Source: a virus (Duplodnaviria; Caudoviricetes). From it: a stretch of 33,886 bases of DNA. Position numbers and translations under genes: made by a program. The notes beneath the pieces were generated by a model, which made no database searches, was not told the DNA's origin, and worked only from the letters and a program-made list of their open reading frames with translations. Positions 7,665-33,886 of this stretch are shown piece by piece (position 1 is the first letter of the stretch; every line of letters begins with the position of its first letter). The DNA lies in the IMG/VR virus record IMGVR_UViG_3300002180_000039, positions 1 to 33,886 of that record; one strand, written 5' to 3'.

Positions 7665-8348
7665 ATGAATAAAATTAATGTATTAGATCATGGATTTGTA
7701 GGATTAGTAGATCATATGGGGTCGGATTTATCAATCTCCCGTAATGCTCGTGTTTCATACGATGCAGAATGGCGAGCGGGCGAAGATAGCGGAAGCGACA
7801 CCCGATTAATTAATTACTTATATTCTAATGGACATAACACACCGTTCGAAGCGGTAACATTTACATTTGATGTCAAGGCTCCGATCTTTGTGTTCCGCCA
7901 ATGGCACCGCCATCGTACACAATCGTTCAATGAATTAAGCGCCCGTTATCGCGAATTACCTGAAGAATTCTATATTCCTGAACCAGAACATATCGGTACA
8001 CAAAATAAAGATAATAAACAGATGCGCGATATTGGTGGCGACATTGATTTCAATCATACAGATGTAGTCAGAAATTTAATGCATATCCAAAATTCAAACG
8101 CATTTAATACTTATCATTTACTCATTGAAAAAGGTGTACCCCGCGAAATTGCCCGATCCGTTTTACCTGTGGCAACTTATAGCCATATGTTCGCGACGGT
8201 TAATTTACATAATTTATTTAGATTTTTAGCTGAACGATTGCATCCACACGCTCAATATGAGATCCGCGTATATGCCGAAGCGATGCTCGAATTAATTCGT
8301 CCGATTGTACCCGTAGCGGTTGCAGCATTCGAAAAAGGTTTAAAATAA
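7665..8348 (+). CDS. thyX: Flavin-dependent thymidylate synthase ThyX
   Basis: RHRTQSFNELSARY signature, H.TPFE, E.AR.VLP, R..PHAQYEIR. Confidence 0.97.
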   Translation: MNKINVLDHGFVGLVDHMGSDLSISRNARVSYDAEWRAGEDSGSDTRLINYLYSNGHNTPFEAVTFTFDVKAPIFVFRQWHRHRTQSFNELSARYRELPEEFYIPEPEHIGTQNKDNKQMRDIGGDIDFNHTDVVRNLMHIQNSNAFNTYHLLIEKGVPREIARSVLPVATYSHMFATVNLHNLFRFLAERLHPHAQYEIRVYAEAMLELIRPIVPVAVAAFEKGLK

Positions 8349-9423: not shown

Positions 9424-9972
9424 TTATGATTCTCTTTGTACCGCTTCAGAAACGCTGTATAACATATCGTTTAATACTTCCCACGGAAAATGAGGGCCGG
9501 GATCGACTTTTTTAGCCGCTTTTTTATCTGGATATTTCTTTTTCCAATCGGCGCGAACCTTATCATGACCTTGTATCCATTCGGTTGTAAATTTATGCTC
9601 TGTCATAAATTGAGCCGATAACGTACCTAAATTTAGAATTTGTTCATCTGTGTAGGGAAAATCGGTACCGCCTTCTAATTCAATACCTATTGTAAAACTA
9701 TTGCATCCCTCGCGACCATTCATTATAGATTTGCCCGCATGATGTGATCGAAACCCTTCGGGTACTAATTCGATAATCGTTCCATCACGTCTAATTAAAT
9801 AATTCGCCGATACTCCGTACTGTTTAAAAATACCGATAATAGCTTTCAAATTAAAAGGATCATTCGGTAAAATATTTTTAGCACTTATAAAATGAATGAC
9901 GATACCATCCATTGATTTTATTTTATGTTTTGAATAACAATATGACGGTAAATGTTTTTTAATAATATTCAC
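9424..9972 (-). CDS. Endolysin, N-acetylmuramoyl-L-alanine amidase (Amidase_2/AmpD-like)
   Basis: IVIH, VSANYLIRRDG, HAGKS, N..TIGIELEG, GH, K.DPGP.FPW. Confidence 0.93.
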   Translation of the reverse strand: MNIIKKHLPSYCYSKHKIKSMDGIVIHFISAKNILPNDPFNLKAIIGIFKQYGVSANYLIRRDGTIIELVPEGFRSHHAGKSIMNGREGCNSFTIGIELEGGTDFPYTDEQILNLGTLSAQFMTEHKFTTEWIQGHDKVRADWKKKYPDKKAAKKVDPGPHFPWEVLNDMLYSVSEAVQRES

Positions 9973-10394
9973 GGTTGTTTATCCATTTTTTTAACGATAG
10001 CTTCGGCGATTTTATCAACAGAAATATCATTCGCTTTATTAGTGCTTTGAGTCCCTAACCATGTAATAAAGCCGGTTGTACAAGTTACGGCGAAAATAAT
10101 TATAAAAGCATAATTTTTTAAATCTGTTTTTTTAACAAATTTTTCATGATGATCCGAATCCATAGCATGAAGTTCAGCTTTTAATTTAATTTCGCATTCC
10201 CGGCGTTCCTTACCACTTTGCTCTATCGCTTTCATGACATTCTGCGTGTCATTTTTTTCATTGCTCATGTGATCCGCCATTTTACAATCGAGATCTTTAA
10301 TCGTGGTTTCGATACTATCCAATCGTATATTTGTTTTTTGATCACCTAGCATTTTATTAACTTCGGCTTCGGTATATATATGTTCATCTGTCAT
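9969..10394 (-). CDS. Hypothetical coiled-coil protein with C-terminal TM helix (lysis-associated)
   Basis: Single hydrophobic segment YAFIIIFAVTCTTGFITWL; coupled to the endolysin start. Confidence 0.7.
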   Translation of the reverse strand: MTDEHIYTEAEVNKMLGDQKTNIRLDSIETTIKDLDCKMADHMSNEKNDTQNVMKAIEQSGKERRECEIKLKAELHAMDSDHHEKFVKKTDLKNYAFIIIFAVTCTTGFITWLGTQSTNKANDISVDKIAEAIVKKMDKQP

Positions 10395-26431: not shown

Positions 26432-27214
26432 TTATGCGTCCTCTATCCAGCCGAACCAATCTGCAGTTATAAGAGCGGCTTTGTCTGTAGTTTTTAAAAG
26501 CATCGCGATAACGGTACCTTCTGTAAATGGTAACGGTACGGGTAAATTAAAACCTTCCGAGCTATCTTGTAAACCAATACTACCAAATGGAATAAATAAT
26601 TCTTGATCGGTATATTGATGATTATCTAATTCAGTCGCAACAATTTGAACCAATGCTCGAGCCGCAGCCGTTCCACTAATTGAGGAAGCAACTAAACCGG
26701 AGACCATCATGCGTTTTCCTTTTGGAACCATACGGGCACTTGATGAACAACGCACGTCATCTGCTTTAATTTCGCTATAAATTTGAGCGCCGACATAGGC
26801 TTTAATATCACCAACCGCACCTTGTCCGGGTGTTCCGGTTGTTTGTATGTGCATGCAATTTATAAAACGTACGCCGGTTATGGCTCCAACTATCGGTGTT
26901 AATCCGTTTAATGGAATAATAGCGGATTGTTCATCAAGATTAATATCGAGATAATGAACCTCAACACTGTTGACACCTATATCGCCGTCGGCATCGTCAG
27001 CATCGGAACTAACAATATCAATATCAATACCCGCCGCGTCTGGAATTTTAAAAACACCATTCGGCCATATAATTCGATTCGCATCAGCACCCGTCGTCGT
27101 TAATTCGCCGAACGATCCTTCGGGTTTCGCGCCTGATACTTTTCCGCGGGCAATTTGAACACCTAAATCCTGAACGGTTCGAAGTGGTCCACTATTACTA
27201 GTTATACCGCTCAT
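26432..27214 (-). CDS. Hypothetical beta-rich protein, probably virion-associated
   Basis: 260 aa, coupled to neighbours, between portal and protease. Confidence 0.7.
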   Translation of the reverse strand: MSGITSNSGPLRTVQDLGVQIARGKVSGAKPEGSFGELTTTGADANRIIWPNGVFKIPDAAGIDIDIVSSDADDADGDIGVNSVEVHYLDINLDEQSAIIPLNGLTPIVGAITGVRFINCMHIQTTGTPGQGAVGDIKAYVGAQIYSEIKADDVRCSSSARMVPKGKRMMVSGLVASSISGTAAARALVQIVATELDNHQYTDQELFIPFGSIGLQDSSEGFNLPVPLPFTEGTVIAMLLKTTDKAALITADWFGWIEDA

Positions 27215-27471
27215 GTATCGATCCTTACTTTACCGATACCACCTATAGCATAAACATAAACATCAGCTGCCGCACCAAATGATAAAGGAAGATCGCCATT
27301 GATCGGTACAGCCTCGGAAAAATCAGTCGGAACGGCACCCGTTGTCGCAATATACGTCCACATATATTTATCAGGTGAATTACTCATGATCCGAATCGCG
27401 GCCGTTGTCAAATTCGTAATAACTTTAGTCCATTGATCAGCGGGGCATGGTACGACTACAGGATTAGCCAT
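27211..27471 (-). CDS. Small hypothetical beta-rich protein
   Basis: Start at MANPVV overlaps the portal stop region. Confidence 0.65.
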   Translation of the reverse strand: MANPVVVPCPADQWTKVITNLTTAAIRIMSNSPDKYMWTYIATTGAVPTDFSEAVPINGDLPLSFGAAADVYVYAIGGIGKVRIDT

Positions 27472-29092
27472 TTTCTTCGTCTCCATTTTCCTCGACAGTC
27501 ATATCGAGATTTTCATCTTTAATTAAACCACTCGCGATCAATGGTTGCAAGGCTTCTGCTAAATTTGTGTTTTCTTTTACTAATTGTTGTACGGTTTTTG
27601 AGTATTTCGACCCAGTTAGTTCGCGTGATGCACGATCACGGGTGATCCAACCATTCACGACAAGTAATTCGTACGCTTTAACCTCTTTGAGTAAATCCAC
27701 GTTGGGTTTTATCGCGCCTGACCATTCGGCAAGCATCCACGCGCCGTATTTATCCCACTGTTCGGGGTTACGCCATGATTCGAGTAGACCCGGTGCGACA
27801 ATATTCCCGTTTAATGTCTCGGAAATTAACCAATCTTGATATATAGGGTTGTTAAATTCTTCACCGAAACTCGTACGTTTTAAATCTAGGTACATTTTCA
27901 ATTCATTAACGGCACCACGACTCGCGGAATAATTGTTCTGAAACGCGAGCGTCATTACTTCCGGTGGTATTTCGTTTGACCATGCAAACGCTTGAACGAT
28001 AGCCGCTTCAAAGGCTCCGAAATTTACGTTCGGACGTTTTGTATCGTAACTTTGAATTTTTTCCCCATGTTGCATTTCCTGATAAATTGATCCGGGCATA
28101 CTTTGAGAAAAATCAAGATCCTTTCGACCTTGAGAGTCATTTTGTGTGGTAATGGTATCTTTACGTAATGCACCACCAGTCAAAGGTAACGTACCCATTT
28201 TGTCCTCGGTTTTTTCGACCCATACAGCGATCATCGCATTAAGTACCGCAGCGCGTTGTTCTGCATCACGATAACGGTCAATCTCTTTTAATGATTGCAT
28301 GACTAATGCGAGAATAGATTGTCCGCGTACGTCATCGATTAGACGTTCGGTACCATATAGTAACCATGCTTGACGACGTCCAGTGCGAGGACCGAGAGCC
28401 GCAACGCGACGATGTATACCGTTCTTTTGTTTAACAAAAAACGCAACATGTCGCCCCGATTTATCAATTTCGACACCGTTTGAAATTTCATTCCCGCGAT
28501 TATTAACGGCACGAATTAAAGTATCACTTTGAGGATCGGAAACGTGCTCGGCATCAATAAGATCAATCGTAGGTAATCCGGCCACGCCTTGCCGTAATAA
28601 AACGAGGACGTCCCCAGATACTAAAGCCATCATTCGGGCTTGACGTTGTAACGCACCTAACGTACGCGCATTACGATGATCACAAATTTCGGGATTTTTA
28701 CCATAAATAGTGAAACGACGCTCGGTATTTTCAGACCATGCGGCCAAATCATCGCGGTCGAGTCCTAAAATATCGGCATCGGGTGTCGCTTCGAGGGATA
28801 GACCCTTATTAATTTCATTCGTGATTAAACGACGAATTAAGCCGCGAGCGTATAGGTTTTCGGTAAATAATTGTTTTGAACGTTTACGTAACAGCCAATA
28901 ATCGACAATTTCATAATCTTTAGTGACGCCGAAACCGTTGTAAAACTTGTCGCCACTCCATGAACCGGTACCACCTACGAAATTATCGAGAGCATTGACA
29001 TCGAGAATGGGAGATATATTAGATTCGGGCGCTTCATAACCAGCATTACCGGTCATAGCGAGCATTTTGTCGCGTAATTTATCATTTACCAT
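27464..29092 (-). CDS. Portal protein (lambda family)
   Basis: LR.RS..L..EN..A.G, GD, NGVEID..GR.VA, RG.S.L, NYSASR, D.LKEV.A. Confidence 0.93.
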   Translation of the reverse strand: MVNDKLRDKMLAMTGNAGYEAPESNISPILDVNALDNFVGGTGSWSGDKFYNGFGVTKDYEIVDYWLLRKRSKQLFTENLYARGLIRRLITNEINKGLSLEATPDADILGLDRDDLAAWSENTERRFTIYGKNPEICDHRNARTLGALQRQARMMALVSGDVLVLLRQGVAGLPTIDLIDAEHVSDPQSDTLIRAVNNRGNEISNGVEIDKSGRHVAFFVKQKNGIHRRVAALGPRTGRRQAWLLYGTERLIDDVRGQSILALVMQSLKEIDRYRDAEQRAAVLNAMIAVWVEKTEDKMGTLPLTGGALRKDTITTQNDSQGRKDLDFSQSMPGSIYQEMQHGEKIQSYDTKRPNVNFGAFEAAIVQAFAWSNEIPPEVMTLAFQNNYSASRGAVNELKMYLDLKRTSFGEEFNNPIYQDWLISETLNGNIVAPGLLESWRNPEQWDKYGAWMLAEWSGAIKPNVDLLKEVKAYELLVVNGWITRDRASRELTGSKYSKTVQQLVKENTNLAEALQPLIASGLIKDENLDMTVEENGDEENG

Positions 29093-29512: not shown

Positions 29513-29761
29513 ATGAATACTTTTACTAAATGGCTAGAAACTTTCTTAGAAGAAAAGAACGCACCCGCTAAATCATGGGAAATCGACGCGAACGGTACTA
29601 CTCACTTCATCGATTCGGATGTCGTTATCGAAGCAATCAAAACCACATCGGGCCAAGAACAAGCACAAATTAAAAATACTTTGGTAATGATTGATTTCAA
29701 AAATGGCGACATTAATCATTTTTTCGAACATTTGGCACGCGGTTTAGTCGCTAACTACTAA
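29513..29761 (+). CDS. Hypothetical protein (unit 1, gene a)
   Basis: GGAG RBS after the promoter; begins MNTFT. Confidence 0.85.
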   Translation: MNTFTKWLETFLEEKNAPAKSWEIDANGTTHFIDSDVVIEAIKTTSGQEQAQIKNTLVMIDFKNGDINHFFEHLARGLVANY

Positions 29762-29765
29762 TCGA

Positions 29766-29798
29766 ACCGGGGCGAAAGCCCCGAAGGATCTTAAAATG
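29766..29798 (+). repeat. Repeated GNRA hairpin plus RBS, copy 1
   Basis: ACCGGGGC-GAAA-GCCCCGAAGGATCTTAAAATG; 32/33 identical to 30542-30574. Confidence 0.92.
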
Positions 29799-30245
29799 AA
29801 GTATATCTTAGTAACAGGCGGCCAAACTGGTAGAAAATTACATTCAGCACATAGCGGATCGAGTTGTTTGTCGTGCGGCCATTGGACGAAAACCGCCGTT
29901 ACACGTTTTCAAGTTGCCGATAATATCGAACCGGAAACACTCGAAAAATTCAAAAATGACGGGTTTGAATTATGCGAAAAATGTTTTCCTCAATATGCCG
30001 ATACACAAATTAAAAAATATACGGGACCGAAGTATCATTTAAAAAATTTACGTCCTGAACTAGTCGAAGGTAGAATCCTCGCTAAATTATTCAGGGGTTC
30101 GGCTTGTGGTCGTAAAGTCGATTATTTATCAAAATTTAATGATTTTAAAAAAGCATATAAGGAAGATCCGGACAAGTGTTGCAAAGGCTGTACGAAAAGA
30201 ATGTTCGAAATAATGGTGCAAGTTCAGGAAATGAAAATAAATTGA
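29796..30245 (+). CDS. Cys/His-rich putative zinc-binding protein (unit 1, gene b)
   Basis: Two H...CG...CxxC clusters. Confidence 0.8.
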   Translation: MKYILVTGGQTGRKLHSAHSGSSCLSCGHWTKTAVTRFQVADNIEPETLEKFKNDGFELCEKCFPQYADTQIKKYTGPKYHLKNLRPELVEGRILAKLFRGSACGRKVDYLSKFNDFKKAYKEDPDKCCKGCTKRMFEIMVQVQEMKIN

Positions 30246-30249
30246 AAAT

Positions 30250-30309
30250 ATCGTTATTTCATGTTGACGGCGGTGTCAACATAGCATATTATTACCTTAC
30301 TGAAACGAA
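30250..30309 (+). promoter_or_regulatory. Repeated promoter/operator, copy 2
   Basis: Same -35, -10 and palindrome as copy 1, 820 bp downstream. Confidence 0.9.
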
Positions 30310-30325
30310 TTAAGGAATAAACAAA

Positions 30326-30538
30326 ATGAATACTTTTACTGAAAACCAAGAATTATCGGCTCGCTCTATCTGTGACAATGATTGTATTTTTCGTGCGACG
30401 GTTGTTAAGCGTACAGCGAAGACCGTTACTATTAAGGACGACCGCGGCGAACGTCGCTGCAAAATCCATAATCGCGGTGACGGTGAGTTTATTTTCCCAT
30501 ATGGTCAATATTCAATGGCCGCTACTTTCAACGCATAA
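30326..30538 (+). CDS. Small hypothetical protein (unit 2, gene a)
   Basis: TAAGGA RBS; begins MNTFT; RSICD.DCIF...V.KRTAKTVT...P.G.YSMA. Confidence 0.85.
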   Translation: MNTFTENQELSARSICDNDCIFRATVVKRTAKTVTIKDDRGERRCKIHNRGDGEFIFPYGQYSMAATFNA

Positions 30539-30541
30539 CGG

Positions 30542-30574
30542 ACCGGGGCGAGAGCCCCGAAGGATCTTAAAATG
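30542..30574 (+). repeat. Repeated GNRA hairpin plus RBS, copy 2
   Basis: ACCGGGGC-GAGA-GCCCCGAAGGATCTTAAAATG. Confidence 0.92.
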
Positions 30575-30976
30575 GCAAAATTATTAAATGAAGAATTTCC
30601 GATTAATATCAGAATGCACCGGGAAACTTTTAGCGAATTCAGAGCAAGCGAGGAAGGTAGTTACGAAGATATTCAAACAGGCGCTAATGATGAATATTCA
30701 GACCATACAAAACATTTTTATTATTGGTCTGATAAACTCCCTTCTTCCCCTACAATATTAGTGATTCAAGATATTGATCAATTATTCGAAACATATCATC
30801 GATTATGTTCTGGTACTTTTCAAATAGATCAAGAATTTGGAAAAAGTTATTTTAAACATGCTTGTCGAATCGCTGATAAATTGAAACCGATTGTCGATAA
30901 AGTAATCGAAGATAATCGCGCCACCGATCAGCATCGAGAAATATATTTATTAACTACTTACCCGTCGGGATATTAA
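30572..30976 (+). CDS. Hypothetical protein (unit 2, gene b)
   Basis: AAGGA RBS; 3' end overlaps the terL 3' end by 23 bp. Confidence 0.8.
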   Translation: MAKLLNEEFPINIRMHRETFSEFRASEEGSYEDIQTGANDEYSDHTKHFYYWSDKLPSSPTILVIQDIDQLFETYHRLCSGTFQIDQEFGKSYFKHACRIADKLKPIVDKVIEDNRATDQHREIYLLTTYPSGY

Positions 30977-32951
30977 AATACAACGCCTCGGACTCGATAT
31001 AATTCCAGAATTTTTCCCAATCAATCGTCTCGAGTTCGAAATGTTGTATACAAATCGACCACGCTAAGATCTCGACGGCTGCATATCCATAACCCAATAA
31101 ATCGAATAATTCATTCGCAGCATTGCCGGGGCGATACCAGTAATAAACCGTATTTCCTTTATCGTCGATTTTCTCGCGGCGACTCTCGACCGTTAATTCC
31201 TTGAGTTGTTTATCGGTAATGTCCACGGGTGCGTTGAAATGGTGCGGTTTTTGAAGTCCTGAATCCTCGACCCACTCGCGACGAAGGACCGGCGCCATAC
31301 GATCTTTATAATGATCAACTAATATCCGATAACCAATGGTCCCGGCTTGTGTGGTAAATTCGGCGAATTCTTTTATCGTTTGATTCTTCGCGGGACGGTC
31401 ACGACCTAAAATCGGATAGACGCCCGACGCGTAATCCGCGCAAAAATTCGAAACCGTATCATTTGCGTAACCAGCATCGACGAGCGTTAATGCGATTTTA
31501 TATTCTTTCCCGTCATCGGCGGTATATGTGGTTTCTTCGATAAGTTCGCGAAGCCGTCCCCATACTGGACTTGATAATTCGCCGCATTCGTCCTCGTCGT
31601 TTTCAACTTCAAAACGCCAATAATCAACAACGTAACAAATCGAATCACGGGTCCAACCCTTGACCGATACGGCTAAATTCTTTTTATGGACATCGACTTG
31701 ACAAGTTAAAAACAGAATCGACGATCCGGAATGCTGCGCGGCGTACTCGTTAGGAACTTGACCCAATCGATAAACCGCTCGACGATGTGCTGATACAGAC
31801 GTAAATCGAATTTTCGATCCCATGATTTCAAACGGTTCGGCTAAAATATTATTATAGAAAACTTGATATTTGCCGATGTCGCGGACCTTTTTTTCGACTG
31901 GGTCAAATCCGCGTAAATATGAACTAACGCATTTATACCATGGCTGCATACCGATCGGAGAATATAACGCGGGCAAGTGATACGAACGAATTCCCGGTTC
32001 GACAGGTCGTGCCGTGGGGTGCCAATGTGCACCATGATCCGAAGAGAATAATCGTTCCTTATCATGTTCGTAATGTTCGTGCCCGCAATTCTGACAACAA
32101 TATCGAACCGATTCGAGTACGAGACTACCTTCGTCGAGGTCCCATTGAAAACCGCCAATCACGCCCGATTCTTTGTTCACGGTTTCCCATCGTAGCGACT
32201 GAGGGAATCCACAGGATTTGCATAATATATTATAAACGCGTTGATCGCCTCGACGGTATGCCGCTTCGATTTTAGATTTACCCTTGATAAGTGGTGTCGA
32301 GCCTCGACCAATTTTCCGACGTTCCCAATAGCCCGAACAACGATCATCACTTAACGAATCGGGATCACCATCTTTACCAACCTTGTCGGGCCATGCGTCG
32401 ATCTCGTCTTTGAGCATGATGGCGATAGAGTACGAACGCATTTTATCAGCATTCTTCGCACCGAACGGGACCATATAGCCGCCGCCCTCCCATTGTAAAT
32501 GATTCGCCGTTTTACCTGTCTTACGGGTATTCCCTTCATCGCTCGATCGGATAATATGAGCGAACCCGGATTGATTAATCATCGGGATAACATTATTTTC
32601 GATACGTGCCGTCGCGAGTTCTTTATCTGCAGTCATGTACATTAGGGGTAACGTTTTCGCGTGGGCCATATAATACAACATGACCGATTCAAGTAATGTC
32701 GTATAAGTAATTTGTACACCTTTTTTGACATTGACTTCGCGGACCGAACTATCAAGATCAAAACAATCAATAATCTCGCGCATGAATGGGTTAACATCGT
32801 AACGAATATATCCGGGTATTGAGGTTACGGATTCCGGGAGGTATCTATTCGCCTCGTTAAAATCCGACGGTTTCAAATGATCAACGACTTCGGTTAATCC
32901 TTCGATTTCATCGATGACCCAGCCCGCGCCGATGTTAGTTAGTTTAGACAT
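30954..32951 (-). CDS. Terminase large subunit (lambda gpA family)
   Basis: PG....NPFMREI.D, K..Q..YT, DEID.W, STP, GDQR.Y...C..C, Y.C..C, VDV, VDAGY, NE..D...Y. Confidence 0.95.
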   Translation of the reverse strand: MSKLTNIGAGWVIDEIEGLTEVVDHLKPSDFNEANRYLPESVTSIPGYIRYDVNPFMREIIDCFDLDSSVREVNVKKGVQITYTTLLESVMLYYMAHAKTLPLMYMTADKELATARIENNVIPMINQSGFAHIIRSSDEGNTRKTGKTANHLQWEGGGYMVPFGAKNADKMRSYSIAIMLKDEIDAWPDKVGKDGDPDSLSDDRCSGYWERRKIGRGSTPLIKGKSKIEAAYRRGDQRVYNILCKSCGFPQSLRWETVNKESGVIGGFQWDLDEGSLVLESVRYCCQNCGHEHYEHDKERLFSSDHGAHWHPTARPVEPGIRSYHLPALYSPIGMQPWYKCVSSYLRGFDPVEKKVRDIGKYQVFYNNILAEPFEIMGSKIRFTSVSAHRRAVYRLGQVPNEYAAQHSGSSILFLTCQVDVHKKNLAVSVKGWTRDSICYVVDYWRFEVENDEDECGELSSPVWGRLRELIEETTYTADDGKEYKIALTLVDAGYANDTVSNFCADYASGVYPILGRDRPAKNQTIKEFAEFTTQAGTIGYRILVDHYKDRMAPVLRREWVEDSGLQKPHHFNAPVDITDKQLKELTVESRREKIDDKGNTVYYWYRPGNAANELFDLLGYGYAAVEILAWSICIQHFELETIDWEKFWNYIESEALYFNIPTGK

Positions 32952-33798
32952 TATTTAATTGATTCAACGTTCGAGCGACTTTAGCTTTAATCGGTCGTAT
33001 GAATGATGTGATCTGATCCTTGACGAATTTCTCCACGTCATCGAGCGAGCGTTCCGCGGAGTGCATCGCCGTAGCGCGTCGGGCAATTGTTTTCGCACCG
33101 TCCGTCAATAATTTGATATGTGCCGATTCAATCGGATCAATTATTCCCAACTTCACGAGGTCGCGACTTACGAGCTCACCTTTCGCGACGGCATTTTTCA
33201 AACGCTTCTCGTTAATGTCTTCAATCATTTTGATCGACTTGAGCCAATCAAGGAAACGAATATCGGTACCGAACCGGGTCACGAGTTCACGGAGACTCAT
33301 ATCCGCGAAGGCTGTTATATCTTCAGGAATTTCGAGGAGCATCGCTTCGGGATCAATTGTTTCGGGTGTGGCTTTTTTTCGCTTGTCGTTTTTTGCTGCG
33401 ACACCCCGTACGTGTGGTTTTTCTTCGGGTTGTTTTACGGCTGGTGATTCCGAATTAATCCCCGCGGCGGTCATCATAACCAAAATCGACGCGGCCCGGT
33501 TGTACCCGATTTTAAGTCCACGTTGGATATTCGAGGCGGTGAAGCGATTGTTCGTCTGACAATGTCGAATAGCATCTTCGTACAGGGGGTCGATTCCCGG
33601 TGCGGGCGATTCTTGCTGTTCTTCGGTTTTGTTTTTTACGTACGCTACGGCTAAATGATGGTTCGCGTTTATGCGTTTTCCTTCCATCGCGGCGCTAAGT
33701 CCGTTACGTATTGCCTTCGTGACAGCCCCAGCCGAAACCCCCGACATGCGTGAAAATTCAGCTTTACTGACTAATTTTTTTTCTGTTTTCTTTACCAT
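32944..33798 (-). CDS. Terminase small subunit (Nu1-like) with inserted FtsK-gamma-like winged helix
   Basis: N-terminal HTH (SKAEFSRMSGVS..AVTKA); internal DPLYEDA...AS.IQR.LKIGYNRAA; C-terminal LKNA..KGELV; overlaps the terL start. Confidence 0.8.
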   Translation of the reverse strand: MVKKTEKKLVSKAEFSRMSGVSAGAVTKAIRNGLSAAMEGKRINANHHLAVAYVKNKTEEQQESPAPGIDPLYEDAIRHCQTNNRFTASNIQRGLKIGYNRAASILVMMTAAGINSESPAVKQPEEKPHVRGVAAKNDKRKKATPETIDPEAMLLEIPEDITAFADMSLRELVTRFGTDIRFLDWLKSIKMIEDINEKRLKNAVAKGELVSRDLVKLGIIDPIESAHIKLLTDGAKTIARRATAMHSAERSLDDVEKFVKDQITSFIRPIKAKVARTLNQLNNV

Positions 33799-33804
33799 GG
33801 GAGG

Positions 33805-33834
33805 AGTGTAGCGCTCCGACTCCTACGCGGTCAA
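33805..33834 (-). promoter_or_regulatory. Candidate promoter giving a leaderless terS transcript
   Basis: TTGACC, 18 bp, TACACT, 6 nt, ATG; no SD at normal spacing. Confidence 0.5.
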
Positions 33835-33886
33835 GTTTTGGTCAAACTTTGGAAAGTGTGCGAGGGGTGATCGACGGAATCAAAAC

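What the first reader, a model, noticed from the sequence alone, without database searches (positions are those of the whole stretch)
33457..33591. FtsK-gamma-like DNA-binding domain inside the small terminase subunit
Seen: residues 70-114 read DPLYEDAIRHCQTNNRFTASNIQRGLKIGYNRAASILVMMTAAGI, flanked by Pro/Glu linkers, between the N-terminal HTH and the oligomerisation region. Known: this matches the FtsK/SpoIIIE gamma consensus (DPLY..A......S.S.LQR.L.IGYNRAA.....E..G), the module that reads KOPS sequences and orients a DNA translocase. Inference: the packaging motor may have borrowed a sequence-polarity reader for pac/cos recognition, for telling phage from host DNA, or for interfering with host FtsK/XerCD.
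Basis: partly seen in the sequence, partly recalled or inferred. Interest (0 to 1): 0.8.

Follow-up and report, generated by a model that had tools for sequence, protein, structure and literature searches.

The report
Cos-phage terminase with wingless FtsK-gamma insert
The protein that starts DNA packaging in this marine phage really carries a trimmed copy of the DNA-reading domain of the bacterial chromosome pump FtsK, but many relatives lack it and a similar fusion was published in 2021, so it is likely an optional extra grip on the genome end rather than a direction reader.

Summary
Observation confirmed. ORF 33798-32944 (-) is the small terminase (TerS) of a lambda-type cos myophage. Residues 70-119 match FtsK_gamma above Pfam's cut-off and fit the solved gamma at 0.6 A. 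But the wing is gone, and the three residues whose loss makes E. coli FtsK KOPS-blind are all substituted. The domain is in 56 of 80 lineages, with at least 9 gains or losses; the cos end is the same with or without it. KOPS is neither enriched nor skewed. The N-terminal HTH, not gamma, co-varies with the direct repeat beside cos. TerS-plus-gamma is published (Bacillus Sam46/Sam112, 2021), and the scan noted it before on other DNA. New here: a Nu1-like cos family with an internal wingless copy, an apparently independent fusion; 15-nt terminal repeats; a PHROG mislabel. One lead: a G/C inverted repeat at the TerS promoter occurs in 18 of 48 gamma lineages and 0 of 15 without, but it was defined after the fact and is not significant in independent pairs. 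Best reading: an accessory DNA grip at the cos end (0.5). New variant of a known kind; interest 0.42.

The parts
32944..33798 (-). Small terminase subunit (Nu1-like), 284 aa; PHROGs files it as phrog_13700 'FtsK/SpoIIIE-like protein'
   Evidence: overlaps the TerL start by 8 nt
33625..33777 (-). N-terminal HTH (residues about 8-58); its recognition helix co-varies with the cos-proximal direct repeat
   Evidence: phrog_57 at residues 4-64, E 4.7e-6; model; co-variation
33457..33591 (-). Wingless FtsK-gamma three-helix domain (residues 70-114), optional in the family
33406..33456 (-). Pro/Glu/Lys linker where the gamma wing would lie; a second short linker precedes the domain at 33592-33624
32953..33336 (-). 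Conserved C-terminal helical region (residues 155-282), inferred oligomerisation and TerL-binding part
   Evidence: dN/dS 0.07; weak complex support
30954..32951 (-). Large terminase, lambda gpA type
   Evidence: PF05876 and PF20454
33872..33886 (-). 15-nt terminal repeat at the contig end, inferred 5' cohesive end (cosN); the same 15 nt close the other end of the 44,371-bp contig
33858..33864 (-). Conserved CTCGCAC element inside the cos end, in lineages with and without gamma
33829..33845 (-). Direct repeat TTGACC x2, 11 bp apart (33845-33840, 33834-33829); candidate HTH-binding sites; the second copy is also the predicted -35
33802..33824 (-). G-rich/C-rich inverted repeat (AGGAGT 33824-33819; ACTCCT 33807-33802) around the predicted -10 box TACACT (33810-33805), 6 nt before the ATG; candidate gamma site or RNA hairpin

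Best explanation
This lambda-type small terminase carries a wingless FtsK-gamma helix-turn-helix that likely serves as an optional second DNA grip at the phage's own cos end, not as a reader of DNA direction. Steps: (1, shown) the gene lies 88 nt inside a fixed genome end and overlaps the gpA-type TerL gene. (2, inferred from co-variation) the native N-terminal HTH reads the direct repeat 42-58 nt inside the end and sets packaging specificity. (3, inferred) gamma, on flexible linkers, would bind the neighbouring DNA through its basic helix with invariant Arg101, most likely the G-rich arms of the inverted repeat 63-85 nt inside the end. That would stabilise the initiation complex and, because the repeat straddles the predicted -10 box, could also damp TerS's own promoter. 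(4, inferred) the benefit is small enough for the domain to be lost repeatedly after one gain.
For: Gamma is additional to an intact HTH. It is under purifying selection like the HTH: dN/dS 0.28 vs 0.26, linker 0.51, 11 pairs. Arg101 and Asp70 are invariant in 116 of 116; helices 2-3 carry net charge +3.7. Optional: 56 of 80 lineages, 13 changes on the tree, at least 9 forced. The cos motif is in 34 of 56 with and 17 of 24 without gamma. HTH helix S24+[ST]25 goes with TTGC repeats in 13 of 13, other helices in 1 of 40; gamma status does not (12 of 38 vs 2 of 15, p 0.30). Inverted repeat of 4 bp or more: 18 of 48 gamma vs 0 of 15 gamma-less; 14 of 24 with an aromatic residue at 99 vs 4 of 24 without. 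14 seen vs 5.5 expected from shuffles; tree simulations P 0.001-0.005. The pattern holds in the least divergent half (12 of 19 vs 1 of 10); a control window in the coding sequence shows no such G-run excess.
Against: No binding data exist. The inverted-repeat link was defined after looking at the data. Independent pairs never reach significance (5 pairs, median p 0.25; 8 pairs, median p 0.25), and the new loci were too few to test it (4 of 12 vs 0 of 2). 30 of 48 gamma lineages lack the repeat, and its arm spacing varies by about 5 bp (read by eye), unlike a fixed operator. Cos end, HTH and gamma lie within 430 bp, so linkage can produce both correlations; the HTH-only tree is too weak to exclude one origin. 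The HTH-repeat link rests on 3 independent pairs (p 0.5). An RNA hairpin explains the repeat without gamma. Gamma is more variable than the HTH (38% vs 49% mean identity), and dS is near saturation.
Confidence: 0.5

Rival explanations
1. Gamma is a non-specific basic DNA tether or a slowly decaying passenger. The inverted repeat is unrelated: an RNA hairpin that blocks TerS translation on read-through transcripts crossing cos, as for T4 gene e, while transcripts starting at the promoter inside it are translated.
For: Specificity positions are highly variable: Y99 42%, N100 27%, R-equivalent at 104 27%, 107 and 110 mixed. Repeated loss. The -10 box lies inside the hairpin, as in the T4 precedent (PMC3014915 passages). 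The last gene at the right end points toward cos and TerS. Arm spacing varies and some stems have bulges or G-U pairs.
Against: dN/dS matches the HTH. RNA folding z-scores do not differ between groups (p 0.59, 0.39), and in the aromatic group the top strand is not more stable than the bottom. It does not explain why the repeat is absent from all 15 gamma-less lineages.
Confidence: 0.3
2. One reading: gamma reads KOPS-like oriented octamers to orient packaging, to tell phage from host DNA, or to compete with host FtsK on the chromosome.
For: True homology to the KOPS reader. This protein keeps IGYNRA. Gamma has joined at least three unrelated TerS families. A few lineages have an exact GGGNAGGG in the promoter spacer (3 of the 63 scored).
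Against: No wing; KOPS-blind positions substituted. Exact KOPS 0-4 per genome, equal to the reversed control. 21 near-matches in the window vs 33 expected, none at the cos end. The top skewed 8-mers are A/T-rich and, where located, scattered, mostly in coding sequence. KOPS with at most 1 mismatch near the start: 9 of 48 vs 1 of 15, p 0.43. A cos end already fixes direction (PMC4669245).
Confidence: 0.08
3. Gamma is a protein-contact module that engages host XerD (activating or blocking dimer resolution) or another protein.
For: The XerD-activating nonapeptide of E. coli FtsK, residues 1289-1297 (PMC5052618), aligns to residues 93-101, where the key Arg (R1289 = R93) and IGYNR are kept; it does not need the wing.
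Against: R93 is kept in only 63% of the family. No integrase among the 54 ORF-sized stretches scanned. No excess of XerD-arm-like sites (0 in the window vs 2.4 expected; 1 vs 0.9 in the rest; motif recalled). No integrated copy among 3 GTDB hits.
Confidence: 0.08

Closest known systems
Small terminase gp1 of Bacillus phages vB_BcM_Sam46 / Sam112 (Kazantseva et al. 2021, PMC8190038; QIQ61202.1)
   Same: TerS with an FtsK_gamma domain, directly upstream of TerL; function untested; few KOPS in the genome; same hypotheses proposed.
   Different: Sam46: Terminase_2 family, headful/pac, gamma at the N-terminus with its wing. Here: Nu1-like family, inferred cos packager, gamma internal and wingless. 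The two align only over gamma (47 columns), so the fusions are inferred to be independent.
FtsK gamma domain (P. aeruginosa 2VE8/2VE9/2J5O; E. coli 2J5P, 5DCF; PF09397)
   Same: Three-helix core, about 49% identity, rmsd 0.6 A over 45 residues; IGYNRA kept in this protein.
   Different: No wing, KOPS-recognition triad substituted, not attached to a translocase motor.
Lambda gpNu1 with cosQ-cosN-cosB (PMC4669245)
   Same: HTH-first TerS gene just inside the left end, followed by gpA-type TerL, head-tail adaptor, lambda-type portal, S49 protease, decoration and gpE-type capsid. Shares phrog_57. cosQ-like AGGTACT 23-25 nt before the end vs GGGTCCT at 23 nt in lambda.
   Different: 15-nt rather than 12-nt end; only 88 nt to the start codon; extra gamma domain; contractile-tail genes; direct profile comparison with Nu1 is not significant (E 0.14).
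gp04 of Shewanella phage SppYZU01 (ARB06241.1, 'hypothetical protein'; phrog_13700)
   Same: Same family, 50.7% identity, same position before TerL, same cos motif, gamma present.
   Different: Not annotated as TerS; recognition helix VGWERA; TTGC-type repeats.

Membership tests
FtsK_gamma (PF09397) | Profile score above the curated cut-off | tested here: met
   45.4 vs 30.6 bits
FtsK_gamma (PF09397) | Three-helix core superposes on solved gamma | tested here: met
   rmsd 0.6 A over 45 columns to 2VE9
FtsK_gamma (PF09397) | C-terminal beta-hairpin wing | tested here: not met
   profile ends at 53 of 63; no strands in the model; wing-like motif in 0 of 55 lineages and 1 of 110 homologues, vs 5 of 5 other phage gamma proteins
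KOPS-reading FtsK gamma | R1300/E1303/E1306 equivalents | tested here: not met
   S104/V107/T110
KOPS-reading FtsK gamma | Oriented, over-represented octamer in the cognate genome | tested here: not met
KOPS-reading FtsK gamma | Sequence-specific DNA binding | not testable with these tools
   needs EMSA or SELEX
Nu1-like small terminase | Gene directly upstream of gpA-type TerL | tested here: met
   TerL starts within -20..+50 nt in 63 of 80 lineages, further downstream in 13, not in the fetched DNA in 4
Nu1-like small terminase | N-terminal HTH plus helical C-terminus matching the Nu1 family | tested here: met
   phrog_57 (lambda Nu1 E 1e-76) matched by 12 of 13 family members at E<=0.1, best 4e-15, up to 200 residues in gamma-less ones; pairwise HHalign to Nu1 not significant
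Nu1-like small terminase | Binds TerL through the C-terminal region | tested here: inconclusive
   weak support: score 0.41, best control 0.00; may reflect likeness to known terminases
Nu1-like small terminase | Adjacent cos site with fixed cohesive ends | tested here: met
   49 of 80 lineages' contigs begin within 3 nt of the motif; 7 of 9 contigs checked end in the same 15 nt; inferred from assemblies, not raw reads
Sam46-type FtsK_gamma-Terminase_2 TerS | Terminase_2 body and N-terminal winged gamma | tested here: not met

The most novel reading that the evidence does not exclude
Phage packaging machines have captured the FtsK-gamma module at least three times independently (Terminase_2, Sf6-type and Nu1-like TerS). 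In this cos family it was stripped of its wing and retargeted from host KOPS to a G/C inverted repeat over the terminase promoter. One protein would then use two readers side by side: the HTH on the cos direct repeats and gamma on the promoter arms. That would couple packaging initiation to shut-off of its own operon, with domain and site decaying together.
Probability: 0.25. Interest if true: 0.7.

Novelty: new variant of a known kind. Interest (0 to 1): 0.42.

Why it matters
How small terminases pick their own DNA is still partly open. This family is a natural experiment: 80 lineages with the same cos end, two HTH specificities matched to two repeat types, and a second DNA-binding domain present, eroded or absent, with a cultured member (SppYZU01) for tests. 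It also corrects annotation: phrog_13700, filed as an FtsK/SpoIIIE-like host-takeover gene, is a small terminase. The surprise is limited because the kind of fusion is in print and gamma is a promiscuous add-on in many phage proteins.

Tried and rejected
KOPS/SRS enrichment or skew: none. Pairwise profile match to lambda Nu1: not significant; P0193 against the family alignment A2 also not significant. Search for longer fused forms: 0 of 17 candidates, weak evidence. BFVD fold search: one significant hit, unnamed. A second viral-contig scan gave 65 loci, all but about 3 already held; those were not added to the counts. The DNA-pattern scan gave 102 stretches, mostly unrelated. RNA-folding difference between groups: none. 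HTH-only tree: too few columns to resolve. No gamma-domain phylogeny was built, so the donor is unknown; the 102 host FtsK sequences used for comparison were picked by similarity to P0258, which inflates their conservation. Sequencing runs: no RNA holder listed; contigs of four runs could not show molecule ends. dif-like sites: chance level. The KOPS-complex paper PMC2570039 is not held, so base contacts of individual residues were not checked. The search of earlier findings by sequence returned nothing. No supplements were read; those of PMC8190038 and PMC10132091 may bear on the prior-art and termini claims.

Full report
Observation. The stretch is residues 70-114 of a 284-aa ORF at 33798..32944 (-). 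It matches Pfam FtsK_gamma at 45.4 bits (cut-off 30.6) over profile positions 4-53 of 63. All 6 PDB sequence hits are FtsK chains. The model (mean pLDDT 83.8) has an HTH at 12-58, three helices at 73-111 with no strands after them, and long helices at 179-282. Foldseek ranks FtsK gamma first, rmsd 0.6 A over 45 columns.

The host protein is a small terminase. The gene overlaps a gpA-type TerL and heads a lambda-like head cluster followed by contractile-tail genes. A search gave 268 homologues; 116 of the 120 listed were aligned, four close relatives of the query being left out. From fetched loci, 145 of 171 matching ORFs were complete and collapsed to 80 lineages at 90% identity. TerL starts within -20..+50 nt in 63, further on in 13, and is not in the fetched DNA in 4. 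12 of 13 members tested match phrog_57, the family of lambda Nu1, at E<=0.1, though a direct comparison with Nu1 is not significant. A predicted complex of two C-terminal regions with TerL 1-320 gave weak support: score 0.41, best control 0.00, runs agreeing in at least 80% of contacts, partner pLDDT at least 67. That mark was reached by 116 of 157 solved and 2 of 215 mismatched pairs, but at 0.60 or under by only 18 solved pairs and both mismatches, and it may reflect likeness to known terminases. PHROGs labels the family 'FtsK/SpoIIIE-like protein' under host takeover, a label driven by the insert. The nearest cultured member is Shewanella phage SppYZU01. The three GTDB hits are MAG contigs starting near the gene, not integrated copies, and no integrase was found among the ORFs scanned, so a lytic life is inferred.

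The window ends at a cos site. Contigs of 49 of 80 lineages begin within 3 nt of a conserved motif, usually 82-108 nt before the start codon. 7 of 9 long contigs checked carry exactly the same 15 nt at both ends; the other two show no such repeat. A motif like lambda cosQ lies 23-25 nt before it, against 23 nt in lambda. I read this as a filled-in 15-nt 5' cohesive end. Against it: a distant gamma-less relative, PD0307, was called P1-type headful by PhageTerm (PMC10132091 passages), and raw reads were not available.

The domain is optional and eroded. It is present in 56 of 80 lineages. On a tree built without it, presence changes 13 times, at least 9 forced by well-supported branches; one gain and many losses is my inference, since more distant relatives lack it and the tree is unrooted. 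The cos motif is found in 34 of 56 with and 17 of 24 without. The wing is missing in 55 of 55 scorable lineages and 109 of 110 scorable homologues, but present in 5 of 5 other phage gamma proteins checked. E. coli residues 1289-1297 (PMC5052618, passages and part 2 of 6) align to 93-101, which places the KOPS-blind triad R1300/E1303/E1306 (PMC2680272 passages) at S104/V107/T110. These positions are mixed in the family, while Arg101 is invariant. The domain is not neutral: dN/dS 0.28 vs HTH 0.26, linker 0.51 and C-terminus 0.07, on 11 pairs with dS near saturation.

No KOPS signal. Exact KOPS occurs 0-4 times in five genomes, like the reversed control. Near-matches in the window are fewer than chance (21 vs 33) and absent from the cos end. 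The most skewed 8-mers of the full contig are A/T-rich; the four located are scattered.

What reads cos. A direct repeat about 11 bp apart lies 42-58 nt inside the end, as TTxAC or TTGC. In 53 of 63 lineages (10 ties dropped), an HTH helix with S24 and S/T25 goes with TTGC in 13 of 13, other helices in 1 of 40; gamma status is unrelated, p 0.30. This points to the native HTH as the specificity element, as in lambda, 21 and N15 (PMC4669245 passages). It is post hoc, rests on 3 independent pairs (p 0.5), and linkage is not excluded.

The one lead for gamma. In 63 of 77 lineages with enough upstream DNA, a -10-like hexamer sits 5-8 nt before the ATG, and only 5 of 80 have an SD-like word there, which suggests a leaderless transcript. 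Among those 63 (17 of 80 dropped), a G-rich/C-rich inverted repeat of 4 bp or more flanks the -10 in 18 of 48 with gamma and 0 of 15 without. It is in 14 of 24 with an aromatic residue at 99 and 4 of 24 without, at equal GC content. Shuffles give 5.5 where 14 are seen; tree simulations give P 0.001-0.005 for gamma and 0 of 1500 per rate for the aromatic class. The pattern survives stratifying by divergence. But independent pairs are too few (median p 0.25), new loci were uninformative, arm spacing varies, and a T4 gene e-type RNA hairpin is a fair alternative (PMC3014915 passages). It is a lead, not a result.

Prior art. TerS with FtsK_gamma was described for Bacillus phages Sam46/Sam112, with the KOPS and host-packaging hypotheses (PMC8190038, outline and passages). 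That protein shares only the gamma stretch with this family and keeps its wing. A third type exists: 4 of 17 Sf6-type TerS among the 120 proteins listed carry gamma, again sharing only gamma. P0193, a single protein without DNA context, is a Nu1-like TerS with a wingless gamma. Of the 150 best gamma hits among cluster representatives, 30 are this family; the rest include FtsK, RdgC, Mrr, AlbA and tandem-gamma proteins, so the module is a common add-on. Four literature searches returned no report of a Nu1-like or cos-phage case; PMC3706429 was seen as a listing only. A TerS review has no mention of FtsK (PMC9611059, term count). The library lacks most subscription papers. Earlier notes of this scan report the fusion on other genomes; they are not independent evidence.

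Verdict. A real, recurrent and partly published fusion. This family adds an independent internal wingless form in cos phages, evidence against the polarity-reader idea, and a testable candidate site. Best reading: accessory grip at the cos end (0.5); non-specific tether with an unrelated RNA hairpin (0.3); KOPS reader (0.08); XerD or other protein contact (0.08). New variant of a known kind; interest 0.42.

Noticed in passing
window 33872-33886 and the far end of contig G001 (L181:1-15); also L013, L017, L024, L025, L038, L042: 15-nt terminal repeat with a cosQ-like AGGTACT 23-25 nt before it; defines the likely physical ends of this phage group, including SppYZU01, whose deposited record starts elsewhere (motif at about 2274).
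   Followed up: partly
window 33829-33845 and TerS residues 21-30: HTH recognition-helix type co-varies almost perfectly with the cos-proximal direct repeat (TTGC vs TTxAC); two predicted packaging specificities.
   Followed up: partly
window 33798-33834: TerS looks leaderless across the family: -10-like hexamer 5-8 nt before the ATG in 63 of 77 lineages, rarely an SD.
   Followed up: partly
window 29513-30976 (+): Several small opposite-strand ORFs inserted between TerL and the head-tail adaptor; only the 82-aa one has a PHROG match (phrog_6004, unknown).
   Followed up: no
window 26432-27486 (-): Two unannotated genes (91 and 260 aa) between portal and S49 protease, with no Pfam or PHROG match.
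   Followed up: no
L002 (Acinetobacter phage Scuro) 12349-12903 (-): The TerS homologue matches only the C-terminal region; neither HTH nor gamma is in that reading frame.
   Followed up: no
L225:2391-3266: The TerS match spans residues 6-278 but the C-terminal region lies in a separate 154-codon frame: split gene or assembly error.
   Followed up: no
proteins P0258, P0276, P0282, P0284; P0193: Sf6-type TerS with N-terminal winged gamma on a long basic tether; and a distant Nu1-like TerS with wingless gamma.
   Followed up: partly
L181:40-100 and junction-spanning loci: Repeated TAGCGG-like words and an A-tract just before the cosQ-like motif at the right end.
   Followed up: no
window 7665-8348 (+); L181:8799-9344 and 9826-10146: ThyX thymidylate synthase, a DNA methyltransferase and a nucleoside 2-deoxyribosyltransferase-like gene.
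   Followed up: no
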